Origin: an uncultured Chloroflexia bacterium
GTDB lineage: Bacteria; Chloroflexota; Limnocylindria; Limnocylindrales; CSP1-4
NCBI GenBank assembly: GCA_963720355.1
Contig: CAVRFH010000004.1
Span: forward strand, 723,361-787,360
Direction: 5' to 3'
DNA length: 64,000 nt
Each line of letters starts with the position of its first letter. The first letter of the stretch is position 1. This document shows positions 10,559 to 19,691 of the stretch, one piece after another. The position numbers were made by a program, and so were the translations under genes. Below the pieces are notes generated by a model. The model worked only from the letters and a program-made list of their open reading frames with translations, did not search any database and was not told the origin of the DNA.

Positions 10559-10635
10559 TGGCGGACCCGACCGGATTCGAACCGGCGATCTCCAGCGTGA
10601 CAGGCTGGCATGTTGGGCCGCTACACCACGGGTCC
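10559..10635 (-). tRNA. tRNA-Asp (anticodon GTC)
   Basis: Folded by hand: acceptor GGACCCG/CGGGTCC, anticodon loop CTGTCAC, T-loop TTCGAAT, discriminator G and an encoded CCA. Confidence 0.9.
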
Positions 10636-14318: not shown

Positions 14319-14960
14319 CCGTTCGTCGCTCGTCCCCGCTCACGCTGGTGGCCGCGTTGGCCATGTTCCTGGCGGTCGGCGCGTGCAGCGTGGCGCCCGG
14401 GGCGACCGCCGGCGTCGCCGAGCCGCCCGCTGATCCCGCGATCGCCGGGTGCCCGACCACGCAGCCCGCCGCGCTCGCGGCCGGCGAGAGGCGCGACGTG
14501 ACGATCACCACGGACCTCGGATGCGATCACCTTGGCCGTCGAGGCTGACCTCTCGCCGATCGCCGCCGGCAACTTCGTCGCGCTGGCCGACTGCGGCTTC
14601 TACGACGGCGTCATCTTCCATCGGGTCGTCCCGGGGTTCGTCATCCAGGGGTGGCGATCCGACGGGGTCCGGTCGCGGCGGGCCGGGCTACACGATCAGG
14701 GACGAGCCGGTCACGTCGCGCTACGCTCGCGGGGTCGTGGCGATGGCCCGAACGCCGGCGCCGGACTCGGTCGGCTCGCAGTTCTTCATCGTCCTCGACG
14801 ACGAGGCGCGCTCCGCGCTGGAGGATGCCAACACCTACCAGATCATCGGCACGGTGTCCGCCGGTATGGACGCCGTCGATGCGATCGCCGCGGCGGCCGA
14901 CGCCGAGCGGCCCAGTGATCCGGTCGTCATGACCGACGTAACGTGTCGACCCCGTGACCG
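14315..14960 (+). pseudogene. Cyclophilin-type peptidyl-prolyl isomerase, lipoprotein form, with at least two frameshifts
   Basis: N-terminal lipobox (LAVGACS) in one frame; [18 protein letters not shown] in a second; [12 protein letters not shown]...DPVVMTDVT in a third. Confidence 0.6.
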
Positions 14961-14983
14961 CCCCCACGAGAGGAGACCGCCCA

Positions 14984-15457
14984 TGACCCGCGCCACTATC
15001 GCCACCGAGATCGGCGACATCGAGATCGAGCTGTACGACACAGTCCGCGCCCAAGGCCGCCCAGAACTTCATCGACCTCGCGAAGAAGGGCTTCTACGAC
15101 GACGTGATCTTCCATCGCGTCATCCCCGGCTTCGTGATCCAGGGCGGCGACGGCCAATACGGCAAGAAAGCCGCCCTCAAGGAGGTCAGCGTCGGGACCG
15201 GCGGACCGGGCTACAAGTTCGAGGACGAGCCGGTCAAGGGCGAGTACGTGCGCGGTTCGCTGGCCATGGCCAACGCGGGCCCGAACACGAACGGCAGCCA
15301 GTTCTTCATCTGCACCGACGACCTAGCCGGCAAGCTGCCGAAGAACTACACGCTCTTCGGGTCGGTCACGAAGGGCCTGGACGTCGTGGATCGCATCGTG
15401 TCGGCACCGCGTAACGGTCGGGATCTGCCGAACGAGCCGGTGGCGATGACGCAGTGA
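14984..15457 (+). CDS. Cyclophilin-type peptidyl-prolyl isomerase, cytoplasmic form, with one frameshift near 15045
   Basis: MTRATIATEIGDIEIELYDT, then a shift to AAQNFIDLAKKGFYDDVIFHRVIPGFVIQGGD...GSQFFICTDD; this second frame is ORF 15104..15457. Confidence 0.7.
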
Positions 15458-16899
15458 CGATCCATCGATCGAGGGCTGACCGAGCCCGCCCGGTGGGCCG
15501 CGGCGCGCCTCGAGGCCGCGAGGATCGCATCGGCCGACCGATCGATGTCGTCCTCACGGGTGTTCCAGCCCGAGACCGAGATCCGGATCGCCGGCTCGCC
15601 GTGGAAGCTCGAGCCACCGAGCCAAGCCGTGCCATCGGCCTGGATGCGGGCGATGACATCGGCCGTGAACTCGGCGTCGCCGAAGCTCAGCAGCACCTGG
15701 TTGAGTACGACTTCGTTGATGATGCGGATGTCAGGCCGGTTGGCCAGTCGGCGGGCCATGCGCGCCGCCAGGTCGCAGCACCGTTCGACCATCTCCGCGA
15801 TCCCCGTCGCGCCGAGTGACCGGATCGCAGCGTAGATCGGGAAGCCGCGGCCGCGCCGCGACAGCTCCGGGACCCAGTCGAACGGGTCGCGTTGCTCGCC
15901 GTCGGCCAGCGGCAGGTAGGCGCGCTGAGATGGCCATCGACGCCCGATGCGCGGCGGCGTCGCGGACGAAGACCACGCCGGCGTCGTACGGCACGTTGAG
16001 CCATTTGTGGGCGTCGGTTGCCCAGGAATCGGCGCCGTCGTACCCGGCGACCAGCGGCCGCAGCCGGGGGCTGGCCGCGGCCCACAGCCCGAACGCCCCG
16101 TCGACGTGGAGCCAGGCGTTGGGGTGATCGGCGGACGGCGGCCACGATCCGCGTCGATCGGATCGGACGCGCCGGTGTTCACCTCGCCGAGCTGGGCGCA
16201 GACGATCGCCGGTCCGGACCGGCCGTCGAGGGCATCGCGCGAGGGCGTCGGGTCCATGCGGCCCTCGTCGTCGGCGGGACCGCTCGGCGCGCGCCCGCCC
16301 CAGGCCGACATAGCGCAGCGCGACGAGCAACGAGGCGTGGGCATCGGCCCCGATCGATGACCCGGATCGGTGGCGCGCCGCATGAGGCCCTGGCCTCCTC
16401 GACGTCCCAGCCGACCCGGCGCAGGACCGCGTGGCGGGCCGCCGCCAGGGCGACGAAGTTGGCCATCGTCGTCGCCGCTCGTGAAACCGACGGTCGCCTC
16501 GGCCGGGAGCCCGAGCAGCTCGACGAGCCAGCGCGCAGCGACCTCCTCGACGACGGCCGCCGCCGGTGCCGCGACATACGGTCCGACGTTCTGGTCCCAG
16601 GCCGACGTCAGCCAATCGGCAGCCAGCGCCGCCGGCACGGAGCCGCCGATGACGAACCCGAAGTAGCGCGGCCCGCTCATGGTCATGAGGCCGGGTTCAA
16701 CGCCCCGCGCGAGCTCGTCGATGACCGTCTCTGCATCGGTGCCGCGCTGCGGGAGCGGCCCGTCGAGCGCGCGTCGCAGGTCGTCGACGGTCGACGTCCG
16801 GGGCGGGTCCGACGCGACGCGCTCCGGCCGACGCCCGATACTCGACCGCGAGTCCGGCGGCGCGCCGGAGCAGGTCGGCCGTCCCCGCGTCTGGGTCAT
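15346..16899 (-). pseudogene. PLP-dependent decarboxylase (group II, DABA/aromatic-amino-acid type) with four or more frameshifts
   Basis: The N-terminus, the [12 protein letters not shown] segment, the HVDGAFG...[14 protein letters not shown]-lysine core and the C-terminus all match group II decarboxylases, but they are spread over three frames (ORFs 15346..17091, 16179..16577 and 15731..16615). Confidence 0.7.
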
Positions 16900-17041
16900 C
16901 GGCGGTCGCTTGCGTGGACTTCGGATCGGCCGCGATCTCGCCCTCCTCCGGCCCTCGCTACGCGTACTCGCACGAAGGTTAAGGAATTTACACAGACAGG
17001 TCGTGCCAAAACCCCTTGGAAATCGACCCCTTTGACGGTAC

Positions 17042-17071
17042 GATATCGGGGCTGTTAAAGTCAGCCAAAGC
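17042..17071 (+). promoter_or_regulatory. Promoter-like TTGACG-18 nt-TAAAGT inside an AT-richer island
   Basis: Hexamers at 17042..17047 and 17066..17071 sit in the only AT-rich stretch of the window (16960..17110); no plus-strand CDS lies downstream. Confidence 0.3.
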
Positions 17072-17074
17072 TGC

Positions 17075-17230
17075 CCCAGCGTCAAGGTCATGGGTAGGTA
17101 GGGTCAGGGTAGTCGGTGCAGCCGACGTGATAGATGCCTTTGGCGCGTGGCAGAAGTGTCCGTTTCGGCGGACTCCTTCACCGGGACAGCATCGAGGCGG
17201 CTCCTTCGGGGGCCGCCTCGAACTTTTCGT
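17075..17230 (+). ncRNA. Candidate small RNA of roughly 155 nt, from the promoter-like site to the terminator-like hairpin
   Basis: Bounded by the sigma70-like hexamers and the GC hairpin plus TTTT at 17194..17227; it lies between two minus-strand genes, so a plus-strand terminator has no CDS to serve. Confidence 0.3.
17194..17227 (+). terminator. Rho-independent-terminator-like hairpin on the plus strand
   Basis: GAGGCGGC(tccttcgggg)GCCGCCTC followed by aacTTTTcg; on the minus strand the hairpin is preceded by A-rich sequence and not followed by U-rich sequence. Confidence 0.4.
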
Positions 17231-17254
17231 CGATCGCCGGAGGCGGTCGCCGTC

Positions 17255-17788
17255 CTAGGCCCCGGCCACCTCGCCGCCGTAGGCCATGCCCGTCGGATGC
17301 AGCTCCTCGAGGAGTCGCACGACCGCGACGTCGATGGCCTCGCGCAGATCGGCGGAGGACGCCGGACTCGCCCAGCCGATGCCGACCCGGACGTGGTCAT
17401 GGCCCTGCAGCAGCATCTCGCACACGTCGCGGACGCGCTCCACGACGTTGATCGCCTCGATCTCGTCGGTCTCCGTCAGCATGATCCCGAAGCGCGTGCG
17501 CTCGATACGGGCGATGTGGTCGCTCGCCCGGATCTCGACGGCCAGGGCCCGCGCGATCTTCACGAACAGTCGCTCGGCGACATCGGAGCCGTCGGCACGG
17601 GCGAGGTCGTCGAAGCCGGCCATCTCGACCAGGGCGACGGTCGTCGGGCGCCGGGTCCTCTGGACCCTGGATACCTCGGACGAGACGACGCGGTCCCACA
17701 GCCGTGGGCCGTCCGTGCCGGTGAGGGGGTCGCTCCAGCCCGACGGTTCCGGCGGCAGCAATCCGACGTCGGTCCCGTCGTCCATCAT
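17255..17788 (-). CDS. GGDEF-domain protein with a degenerate active site (RTRF in place of GGDEF/GGEEF)
   Basis: WSDPLTG ... ALVEMAGFDDL ... RIERTRFGIML follows the GGDEF template, but the catalytic motif is not conserved; start taken at the MMDDG Met. Confidence 0.5.
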   Translation of the reverse strand: MMDDGTDVGLLPPEPSGWSDPLTGTDGPRLWDRVVSSEVSRVQRTRRPTTVALVEMAGFDDLARADGSDVAERLFVKIARALAVEIRASDHIARIERTRFGIMLTETDEIEAINVVERVRDVCEMLLQGHDHVRVGIGWASPASSADLREAIDVAVVRLLEELHPTGMAYGGEVAGA

Positions 17789-19615: not shown

Positions 19616-19691
19616 GCGCCTGTAGCTCAGTGGATAGAGCGTCGGCCTCCGGAGCCGAAGGTCGCAGGTTCGAATCCTGTCGGGCGCGCCA
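19616..19691 (+). tRNA. tRNA-Arg (anticodon CCG)
   Basis: Folded by hand: acceptor GCGCCTG/CGGGCGC, D-arm GCTCAGTGGATAGAGC, anticodon stem-loop TCGGC-CTCCGGA-GCCGA, T-loop TTCGAAT, encoded CCA. Confidence 0.9.

What the first reader, a model, noticed from the sequence alone, without database searches (positions are those of the whole stretch)
16960..17240. AT-richer intergenic island with promoter-like hexamers and a plus-strand intrinsic terminator between two minus-strand genes: candidate sRNA
This is the only markedly AT-rich stretch in a 72% GC window (gaaggttaaggaatttacacagacagg...). TTGACG-18 nt-TAAAGT sits at 17042..17071. About 150 nt downstream there is a GC-clamp hairpin, GAGGCGGC-loop-GCCGCCTC, followed by aacTTTTcg, but only on the plus strand. 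On the minus strand the hairpin is preceded, not followed, by the T-run, so it is a poor terminator for the GGDEF gene. Both flanking genes (the decarboxylase pseudogene and the GGDEF gene) are on the minus strand, so a plus-strand terminator has no protein-coding gene to serve. The alternative is an 80-codon plus-strand ORF at 17016..17258 with poor codon usage.
Basis: seen in the sequence. Interest (0 to 1): 0.55.

Follow-up and report, generated by a model that had tools for sequence, protein, structure and literature searches.

The report
New conserved structured small RNA gene
The AT-rich gap holds an independently transcribed, roughly 177-base non-coding RNA whose folded core is almost unchanged in over 100 uncultured soil and freshwater bacteria, matches no catalogued RNA family, and has no known function.

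Summary
The promoter it picked is wrong.

- **The gene.** Comparison with 7 syntenic loci and at least 120 metagenome contigs shows a sharply bounded conserved block at about 16974-17228. It contains an upstream A/T-rich block, a conserved TTGGAA-17-TACGAT promoter (17016-17044), an RNA of about 177 nt (about 17051-17227) and an intrinsic terminator.
- **The fold.** The RNA forms a 5' hairpin, a three-way junction and a large invariant G-rich internal loop. In 98 distinct sequences, 96.4% of pair cells are paired and 19 pairs show compensatory changes. G·U pairs and UUCG/GNRA loops fix the plus strand.
- **Not coding.** The 80-codon ORF is not conserved and has no coding periodicity.
- **Not a known family.** Rfam 15 has no match. 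It fails the 6S, SRP and riboswitch tests that could be run here.
- **Context.** It nearly always follows a cyclophilin gene and often precedes tRNA-Arg(CCG). Downstream protein genes vary and are often convergent, and no antiterminator is present, so it is a stand-alone RNA.
- **Function.** Unknown. Most likely it binds a protein or ligand through its invariant core.

The parts
16974..16993 (+). Conserved upstream A/T-rich block GAAGGTTAAGGAATTTACAC, about -77 to -58 from the predicted start. Probably an UP-like or activator site of the RNA promoter.
   Evidence: The conserved block starts sharply here, and sequence upstream cannot be aligned. The block is kept in nearly all of about 100 loci, whether the upstream gene is a cyclophilin or a decarboxylase. 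It occurs once in the window.
17008..17021 (+). A-tract (17008-17011) followed by the -35 hexamer TTGGAA (17016-17021).
   Evidence: AAAACCCTTGG is invariant or nearly so across loci.
17039..17044 (+). -10 hexamer TACGAT, 17 nt after the -35.
   Evidence: Relatives carry TAGGAT, TACAGT, TAAAGT, TATAGT, TAGCAT or TATGCT at the same spacing. T1, A2 and T6 are kept while the 17-nt spacer varies freely.
17051..17227 (+). Predicted mature RNA, about 177 nt. The ends are inferred, not mapped.
   Evidence: The start is inferred 6-7 nt after the -10, at the base of hairpin P0. The end is inferred at the T-run after the terminator. The covariance model built from 98 relatives scores 211.6 bits at 17042-17237 on the plus strand, with no second copy in the window.
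17050..17066 (+). P0, the 5'-terminal hairpin (GGCUG / CAGCC).
   Evidence: Relatives have GUCGC-GCAA-GCGAC, GCUGC-UUCG-GCAGC, GUUGC-GAAA-GCAGC and similar. Two pairs switch C-G/U-A and U-A/C-G in 13 sequences each.
17070..17077 (+). P1 5' strand GCUGCCCC, which pairs with 17183-17190 and closes the three-way junction.
   Evidence: 100% of cells are paired. The helix is nearly invariant, with 7 C-to-U changes that give G·U.
17079..17087 (+). P2 5' strand GCGUCAAGG, which pairs with 17138-17146.
   Evidence: Four pairs show changes on both sides, for example C-G 75 / U-A 16 and G-C 59 / U-A 23 / A-U 2.
17088..17137 (+). Invariant core. It consists of a G-rich 24-nt strand UCAUGGGUAGGUAGGGUCAGGGUA (17088-17111), hairpin P2a GUCGGUGCAGCCGAC (17112-17126) and an 11-nt strand GUGAUAGAUGC (17127-17137).
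   Evidence: The core is identical in all 8 sequences found through synteny. Outside the 20-mer used for the scan it is at least 97% conserved in 98 sequences. P2a has one compensatory pair, U-A to C-G, in 7 sequences.
17138..17146 (+). P2 3' strand CUUUGGCGC.
17149..17182 (+). P3 arm: base GGCAGAAG / CUUCACC plus a variable hairpin (17158-17173, UUCG loop).
   Evidence: The hairpin has 4 pairs with changes on both sides, and its loop and stem length vary through indels that are not multiples of three. The base is nearly invariant.
17183..17190 (+). P1 3' strand GGGACAGC.
17192..17227 (+). Intrinsic terminator: 13-bp stem with UUCG loop (17192-17221) and T-run (17224-17227).
   Evidence: Found by the scan. 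Seven pairs show compensatory changes (A-U/G-C in 26 and 43 of 98 sequences). Relatives have a mean of 4.6 T in the 10 nt after the stem, and the mean hairpin energy is -26.8 kcal/mol.

Best explanation
Window ~16974-17228 is a complete, independent gene for a structured non-coding RNA on the plus strand.

**Transcription.** A sigma-A-type promoter (A/T-rich upstream block, TTGGAA, 17 nt, TACGAT) starts transcription near 17051. A constitutive intrinsic terminator ends it near 17227, giving an RNA of about 177 nt.

**Fold.** The RNA has a protective 5' hairpin (P0) and a tight three-way junction (P1, P2, P3). The P2 arm carries a large asymmetric internal loop (24 nt G-rich strand opposite 11 nt) capped by a short hairpin. 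This loop and the junction helices are essentially invariant, while the peripheral helices covary.

**What is shown.** The gene boundaries, the strand, the promoter logic, the secondary structure, the absence of coding capacity, the absence of a conserved downstream gene, and the absence of an antiterminator.

**What is inferred.** The RNA acts in trans as a folded particle whose invariant core is a binding surface for a conserved partner: a protein (an RNP or sequestering RNA) or possibly a small ligand. It is less likely to act as a simple base-pairing seed. Given that the gene is real, I put about 0.4 on partner binding by the folded core and about 0.25 on base-pairing.
For: - The alignment of 97 sequences is.
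- **Promoter.** The -35 and the T-A-N-N-N-T -10 are conserved across a variable 17-nt spacer.
- **Structure.** 96.4% of 4908 pair cells are paired. 19 pairs and 258 cells show changes on both sides, against 81 +/- 8.6 in shuffles (0 of 500 reach the observed value) and at most 37 in slid controls.
- **Strand.** The same pairs read on the minus strand are only 90.3% paired, because of 347 G·U cells. UUCG and GNRA loops and the T-run fit the plus strand only.
- **Selection.** The neighbouring cyclophilin falls to 59% amino-acid identity while the RNA core stays 81-91% identical in nucleotides. Of 101 core positions outside the scanned 20-mer, 62 are at least 97% conserved.
- **Not coding.** Two frames carry invariant stops in the core. 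GC by codon position is 0.62/0.59/0.62, against GC3 of 0.85-0.92 in real genes nearby.
- **Not cis-regulatory.** 45 called downstream neighbours fall into 32 protein clusters, 26 of them convergent (with a crude gene caller). GGDEF lies downstream in only 10 loci. The terminator's 5' arm pairs with upstream RNA no better than shuffled arms (-13.8 against -14.9 kcal/mol). The adjacent tRNA-Arg has its own TATNNT -10.
- **Single copy.** One copy in the window.
Against: - There is no expression data, so the transcript, its ends and its abundance are all inferred.
- The metagenome set was collected with an exact 20-mer from the core. Invariance of those 20 bases is shown independently only by the 7 syntenic loci, and the phylogenetic range is a lower bound.
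- The sequences are related, so counts of compensatory cells overstate the number of independent events.
- The structure was derived from these same sequences, which favours it over the slid controls.
- P1, the P3 base and the internal loop never vary, so their pairing is predicted rather than demonstrated.
- Nothing here identifies a partner. The choice between partner binding and base-pairing rests only on the pattern of conservation.
Confidence: 0.8

Rival explanations
1. A base-pairing regulatory sRNA. The invariant single-stranded G-rich stretch (GGGUAGGUAGGGUCAGGGUAG) is a seed that pairs with C/U-rich sites in mRNAs, and the rest of the RNA is scaffold.
For: The gene has its own promoter and terminator and has no conserved cis target. 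A long invariant strand is predicted to be unpaired. Established knowledge offers a precedent: the actinobacterial 6C RNA is a highly conserved sRNA that pairs through C-rich loops.
Against: Conservation is not limited to a seed. Both strands of the internal loop, the junction helices P1 and P3 and the linkers are also invariant (62 of 101 positions outside the 20-mer). That pattern is typical of RNAs with a tertiary fold or a macromolecular partner. No target was sought or found.
Confidence: 0.25
2. A riboswitch-like cis leader. An aptamer followed by a terminator controls read-through into the downstream gene (tRNA-Arg(CCG) in compact loci, an MFS transporter in L002 and L007).
For: The architecture of a three-way junction followed directly by a terminator resembles transcriptional riboswitches. 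tRNA-Arg(CCG) lies 26-88 nt downstream on the same strand in 12 loci. A co-oriented MFS gene follows in L002 and L007.
Against: - In the window and many other loci the next gene is convergent, and downstream genes fall into 32 clusters.
- The terminator sequence varies freely while the core is invariant, and there is no antiterminator pairing above the shuffled control.
- The tRNA has its own -10 element.
- No Rfam riboswitch model matches.
Confidence: 0.07
3. A lineage-specific functional analogue of 6S RNA. This is a special case of the protein-binding reading, in which the large internal loop mimics an open promoter and sequesters RNA polymerase.
For: The RNA is of similar size (about 180 nt), is a stand-alone gene with a strong-looking promoter, and has a large asymmetric internal loop flanked by helices. 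From established knowledge, Rfam's 6S model is known to miss divergent lineages.
Against: - There is no 6S hit even at E <= 10.
- The 5' end forms its own covarying hairpin instead of pairing with the 3' end.
- The fold is a three-way junction rather than a rod.
- The helix beyond the loop is only 6 bp, too short for the long apical stem of 6S RNAs.
Confidence: 0.08
4. No RNA gene at all. Instead, minus-strand features are present: the hairpin terminates the GGDEF gene, and the AT-rich part is the promoter and 5' UTR of the decarboxylase gene.
For: The hairpin lies 34 nt after the GGDEF stop codon. From established knowledge, terminators without a U-tail are reported in high-GC bacteria. The decarboxylase starts next to the AT-rich block. 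There is a weak minus-strand Rfam hit to Actinomyces-1 (22.9 bits).
Against: - The whole block is conserved intact in loci that have neither GGDEF downstream nor a decarboxylase upstream. A cyclophilin is the upstream neighbour in 98 loci.
- G·U pairs, tetraloops and the T-run are specific to the plus strand.
- The Rfam hit is far below its gathering score of 39.1 and covers only the hairpin.
- The hairpin may still help end GGDEF transcripts in this genome, as a side effect.
Confidence: 0.03
5. A small protein encoded by the 80-codon ORF 17016-17258, or by a mini-ORF such as AUG GGU AGG UAG at 17090-17101.
For: The ORF exists. The three-codon mini-ORF lies in the invariant core.
Against: - Indels that are not multiples of three occur in P0 and P3.
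- There is no conserved start or stop in that frame.
- The other two frames carry invariant stops.
- There is no codon-position GC bias and no Pfam match.
- Conservation follows RNA helices rather than codons.
Confidence: 0.01

Closest known systems
raiA motif RNA (Rfam RF03072) and similar orphan, highly conserved structured bacterial ncRNAs
   Same: Roughly 200-nt multi-helix RNA with many invariant nucleotides in junctions and loops. It is followed by its own terminator, is not consistently upstream of one gene, and has no known biochemical function. This comparison rests on established knowledge of that class.
   Different: There is no sequence or structure match (no Rfam hit at E <= 10). 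The lineage differs (relatives of a Candidatus Limnocylindrales MAG), and so do the fold and the genomic context (after a cyclophilin gene, before tRNA-Arg).
6S RNA (RF00013)
   Same: A stand-alone gene for a stable RNA of about 180 nt with a large internal loop.
   Different: It fails the covariance model. It is a three-way junction with an independent 5' hairpin and has only a 6-bp helix beyond the loop.
Transcriptional riboswitch aptamers (three-way-junction types such as purine or TPP)
   Same: A compact junction with invariant unpaired nucleotides and covarying peripheral helices, followed directly by a terminator.
   Different: There is no conserved downstream gene and no alternative antiterminator pairing, and the terminator drifts independently of the core.
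6C RNA of Actinobacteria
   Same: A very highly conserved small RNA of high-GC bacteria with its own promoter and terminator and purine- or pyrimidine-biased single-stranded stretches. This comparison rests on established knowledge.
   Different: 6C is shorter, consists of two hairpins and has C-rich loops. This RNA is a G-rich, larger, junction-based fold with no Rfam match.

Membership tests
Stand-alone bacterial sRNA gene (generic kind) | Own promoter, conserved in position and in consensus positions | tested here: met
   TTGGAA, a variable 17-nt spacer and TANNNT are conserved across about 100 loci.
Stand-alone bacterial sRNA gene (generic kind) | Rho-independent terminator on the same strand | tested here: met
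   13-bp stem plus T-run. Seven covarying pairs. The T-run is kept in relatives.
Stand-alone bacterial sRNA gene (generic kind) | No conserved open reading frame | tested here: met
Stand-alone bacterial sRNA gene (generic kind) | A discrete transcript is detected | not testable with these tools
   No expression data are available.
6S RNA (RF00013) | Match to the family covariance model | tested here: not met
   No hit at the gathering threshold, at E <= 10 on 16800-17400, or at E <= 1 on 14 divergent copies.
6S RNA (RF00013) | Rod-like fold: 5' and 3' ends pair in a closing stem, with a central bubble and a long apical stem | tested here: not met
   The 5' end forms its own covarying hairpin, the fold is a three-way junction, and the apical helix is only 6 bp.
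6S RNA (RF00013) | Binds the RNA polymerase holoenzyme and templates pRNA | not testable with these tools
   Biochemical assay required.
Riboswitch / cis-regulatory leader | Sits in the 5' UTR of a conserved, co-oriented gene family | tested here: not met
   Downstream neighbours are heterogeneous and often convergent. In the window the next gene is convergent.
Riboswitch / cis-regulatory leader | Expression platform with mutually exclusive terminator and antiterminator pairing | tested here: not met
   The terminator 5' arm against upstream RNA gives -13.8 kcal/mol, against -14.9 for shuffled arms, and the pairing positions are inconsistent.
Riboswitch / cis-regulatory leader | Specific ligand binding | not testable with these tools
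   In-line probing or ITC required.
c-di-GMP riboswitches (considered because of the GGDEF neighbour) | Covariance-model match and association with c-di-GMP genes | tested here: not met
   No Rfam hit. GGDEF is downstream in only 10 loci and is convergent.
Actinomyces-1 RNA (RF02928) | Score at or above the gathering threshold | tested here: not met
   22.9 bits against 39.1, on the minus strand, covering only the terminator hairpin.
SRP RNA | Match to the Rfam SRP RNA covariance models | tested here: not met
   No SRP model hit at E <= 10.
Small protein gene | Conserved reading frame and coding periodicity | tested here: not met
   No Pfam match.

The most novel reading that the evidence does not exclude
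The invariant core (a 24-nt G-tract-rich strand opposite an 11-nt strand, set on a tight three-way junction) is a new RNA tertiary fold. It would serve either as the RNA subunit of an undescribed housekeeping ribonucleoprotein of the Limnocylindria-like lineage, or as a new ligand-binding or catalytic domain that acts in trans. That would be more than just another base-pairing sRNA.
Probability: 0.2. Interest if true: 0.8.

Novelty: new member of a known kind. Interest (0 to 1): 0.6.

Why it matters
Very few bacterial non-coding RNAs combine this degree of sequence invariance with a multi-helix fold, and most that do turned out to be riboswitches, ribozymes or RNP subunits.

This one comes from an abundant but uncultured soil and freshwater lineage. 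It is absent from Rfam 15 and from the literature searched here, and it now has defined boundaries, a promoter, a covariation-supported structure and more than 100 representatives.

That makes it directly testable. It can be looked for in metatranscriptomes, probed with ligands and used for pull-downs. The model can also be used to chart its phylogenetic range and to find a co-occurring partner.

It also corrects the annotation of this locus. The AT-rich gap is a gene, not spacer DNA and not an 80-aa ORF.

Tried and rejected
- **Rfam 15.** The whole window at gathering thresholds gave only two tRNAs. 16800-17400 at E <= 10 gave three chance-level minus-strand hits. Fourteen divergent copies at E <= 1 gave only tRNAs and noise.
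- **Known RNA classes.** Resemblances to SRP RNA, the T-box and the c-di-GMP-II riboswitch were recalled from short sequence strings (GUCAGG...GCAGCC; GGUAGGUAG). All were rejected because no model matches and the motifs sit in different structural positions.
- **6S RNA.** Rejected on the model and on the fold.
- **G-quadruplex.** ViennaRNA with G-quadruplex energies does not place one in the minimum-energy structure. This does not exclude one.
- **Antiterminator.** None found.
- **Coding.** Rejected.
- **Second copies or paralogues.** None found by profile nhmmer or by the covariance model with filters off, in the window or in GGDEF loci that lack the element.
- **Mobile-element origin.** No match in viral contigs, plasmids or phages.
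- **Upstream A/T block at other promoters.** It occurs only once in the window.
- **Literature.** Six searches found nothing on this RNA.
- **Organism name.** The cluster look-up gave none.
Not conserved, and it lies inside hairpin P0.

Full report
**1. Observation**

The region was read directly.
- The 100-nt window 16971-17070 has the lowest GC content of the whole 64 kb: 49% against a mean of 71.3% (sd 5.2). Other windows reach 54-55%.
- The consensus scan finds one sigma-70-like site, TTGACG-18-TAAAGT, at 17032-17061.
- The same scan finds a plus-strand terminator-like hairpin at 17192-17221 (13 pairs, UUCG loop) followed by ACTTTTCG. Both features exceed what shuffled sequence gives.
- The flanking genes are on the minus strand. 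One is a PLP-dependent decarboxylase whose Pfam match is split over two frames. The other is a GGDEF-domain gene ending at 17255.
- The 80-codon TTG ORF at 17016-17258 exists.

**2. Relatives found through synteny**

- A scan of reference genomes with the GGDEF-like protein returned one locus, from a Candidatus Limnocylindrales MAG. Its protein is 66% identical, yet the intergenic element is almost identical, including a 48-nt run without a change.
- The protein database held more than 200 relatives of the GGDEF-like protein. Ten look-ups of their contigs gave six more loci with the element.
- In the alignment of the eight sequences, conservation begins abruptly at window 16974 and ends just after the terminator, near 17228. 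The flanks cannot be aligned.
- The immediate neighbours differ between loci. Upstream is either a divergent decarboxylase or a co-oriented cyclophilin. Downstream is a convergent GGDEF gene, a methyltransferase, or a co-oriented MFS transporter. The block therefore behaves as a unit of its own.

**3. Relatives in metagenomes**

- A 20-mer from the invariant core occurs once in the window and in no viral contig.
These gave 98 distinct full-length RNA sequences.
- Caveat: these 20 bases are fixed by the way the set was collected. Their invariance is shown independently only by the syntenic loci. Everything outside the 20-mer is free to vary.

**4. Promoter**

- Across about 100 loci the pattern upstream of the RNA runs in this order:
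  - a conserved A/T-rich block (GTTAAGGAATTTACAC, or related A/T-rich variants in divergent clades);
  - a variable stretch of 11-14 nt;
  - AAAAC(C/T)CTTGG;
  - a variable 17-nt spacer;
  - a hexamer that keeps only T1, A2 and T6 (TAGGAT, TACGAT, TACAGT, TAAAGT, TATAGT, TAGCAT, TATGCT and others);
  - the first helix of the RNA, 6-7 nt further on.
- This is the signature of a sigma-A/sigma-70-type promoter.
- In the window the -35 is TTGGAA (17016-17021) and the -10 is TACGAT (17039-17044), which implies a start near 17051.
Its TAAAGT lies in the loop of hairpin P0, so a start at about 17068 would cut a covarying helix.
- The upstream block occurs only once in the window.

**5. Structure and strand**

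- Single-sequence folding of the plus strand gives z = -3.2. RNAalifold on 8 and on 98 sequences suggested the helices.
- I wrote a structure with seven helices and counted it on the 98 sequences. The helices are P0, P1, P2, P2a, the P3 base, the P3 hairpin and the terminator.

| Measure | Observed | Shuffle control | Slid controls |
|---|---|---|---|
| Pair cells forming a standard pair | 96.4% | 91.2% | 30-47% |
| Pairs with changes on both sides | 19 | 13.8 | 5-11 |
| Cells with changes on both sides | 258 | 81 +/- 8.6 (0 of 500 reach the observed value) | at most 37 |

- Covariation is strong in P0, the outer part of P2, the P3 hairpin and the terminator. It is weak, one pair, in P2a.
- P1, the P3 base and the internal loop never vary, so their pairing is predicted only.
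- Limits: the sequences are related, and the structure was derived from them.
- Read on the minus strand, the same pairs are only 90.3% paired, because 347 cells are G·U. UUCG and GNRA tetraloops and the T-run after the terminator also fit the plus strand only.

**6. Strength of selection**

- The adjacent cyclophilin drops to 59% amino-acid identity to the window's copy. The RNA core stays 81-91% identical in nucleotides, with the changes concentrated in covarying helices.
- Outside the 20-mer, 62 of 101 core positions are at least 97% conserved.

**7. Not a protein**

- Two of the three plus-strand frames have invariant stop codons inside the core.
- The loops of P0 and P3 carry indels that are not multiples of three.
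- The ORF has GC of 0.62/0.59/0.62 at codon positions 1-3. Neighbouring genes have GC3 of 0.85-0.92.
- It has no Pfam match.

**8. Not a cis-regulator**

- A co-oriented cyclophilin gene ends within 150 nt upstream of the block in 98 loci. In many of these its stop codon is the TAA inside GGTTAAGG.
- tRNA-Arg(CCG) follows on the same strand at 26-88 nt in 12 loci and at 0.3-8 kb in 13 more, including the window at 19616.
- The tRNA has its own TATNNT element just upstream, so it is a separate transcription unit.
- The protein-coding genes downstream are heterogeneous: 45 called neighbours fall into 32 clusters, 26 of them convergent (with a crude gene caller). GGDEF is present in only 10 loci.
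- The terminator sequence drifts with compensatory changes while the core stays fixed. Its 5' arm pairs with upstream RNA no better than shuffled arms do.
- The terminator is therefore constitutive, and the RNA is a stand-alone product.

**9. Comparison with known families**

- Rfam 15 gives no plus-strand match for the window region or for 14 divergent copies. The only hit near it is Actinomyces-1 on the minus strand, at 22.9 bits against a gathering score of 39.1. That hit is just the hairpin.
- The fold (an independent 5' hairpin, a three-way junction and a 6-bp apical helix) does not fit 6S RNA.
- SRP, T-box and c-di-GMP models do not match.
- There is no match in plasmids or phages, and nothing in six literature searches.
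- A covariance model built here scores 211.6 bits at 17042-17237 on the plus strand and finds no second copy.
- The closest known kind is the set of orphan, highly conserved structured bacterial ncRNAs, such as the raiA motif RNA. This RNA resembles those in type but is not a member of any such family.

**10. Mechanism**

- Shown: an independent plus-strand gene with a promoter, a structured RNA of about 177 nt and a constitutive terminator.
- Inferred: invariance extends over both strands of a 24/11-nt internal loop and over the junction helices, not just a short seed. The RNA therefore most likely works as a folded particle that binds a conserved partner, a protein or possibly a small ligand.
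- Given that the gene is real, I put this at about 0.4, base-pairing through the G-rich strand at about 0.25, a 6S-like role at about 0.08 (within the protein-binding reading), and cis control at about 0.07.
- A G-quadruplex is not predicted in the minimum-energy fold, but it is not excluded.

**11. Verdict**

- It is a new family of a known kind. It is of moderate to high interest to RNA biologists because of its unusual conservation, its abundance in environmental data and its unknown function.

Noticed in passing
window 19616-19688 (+); L015, L017, L044, L076, L082, L089, L098, L106, L115, L119, L123, L126: tRNA-Arg(CCG) is the syntenic downstream partner of the RNA. It lies 26-88 nt away in 12 loci and 0.3-8 kb away in 13 others, including the window. 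The interval between the RNA and the tRNA therefore looks like a hot spot where unrelated genes (GGDEF, ABM, methyltransferase, MFS and others) have been inserted. In the compact loci the tRNA's -10 follows the sRNA terminator so closely that its -35 must overlap the terminator.
   Followed up: partly
window 14324-16950: Three consecutive genes (two tandem cyclophilins and the decarboxylase) each change reading frame, and gene calls in several ERZ2503 loci (L007, L008, L009) are similarly fragmented. This looks more like indel errors of a long-read assembly than three pseudogenes. The window also has private single-base insertions in homopolymers of the RNA promoter and of P0 (AAAACCCC, TTAAAGT, CCAAAG).
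   Followed up: partly
window 17255-17788 (-) and proteins P0001-P0120: The neighbouring GGDEF-domain protein belongs to a family of more than 200 single-domain proteins of about 178 aa. In these the GG(D/E)EF active-site motif is replaced by (D/E)RTRF, and none of the top 120 relatives has GG[DE]EF. They are probably not active diguanylate cyclases.
   Followed up: partly
L014, L104 and many other loci, at the position equivalent to window 16974-16982: In many relatives the cyclophilin ORF ends at the TAA inside the conserved GAAGGTTAAGG block. The end of that gene and the upstream promoter element of the RNA therefore overlap, and cyclophilin transcripts would run into the RNA gene.
   Followed up: no
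window 10559-10635 (-): tRNA-Asp(GTC) on the opposite strand lies 3.4-6.9 kb upstream of the RNA in 12 loci, including the window. The wider neighbourhood (hisA, two cyclophilins, the RNA, tRNA-Arg) is therefore syntenic.
   Followed up: no
window 17070-17075 and 17149-17153: CUGCC in the P1 5' strand is complementary to GGCAG in the P3 5' strand. An alternative pairing that excludes both P1 and P3 is therefore possible. Both segments are invariant, so covariation cannot test it (seen in the sequence).
   Followed up: no
L131 37-68: This contig carries the 20-mer but not the rest of the element (11-12 bits). It is either a chance match or a fragment.
   Followed up: no
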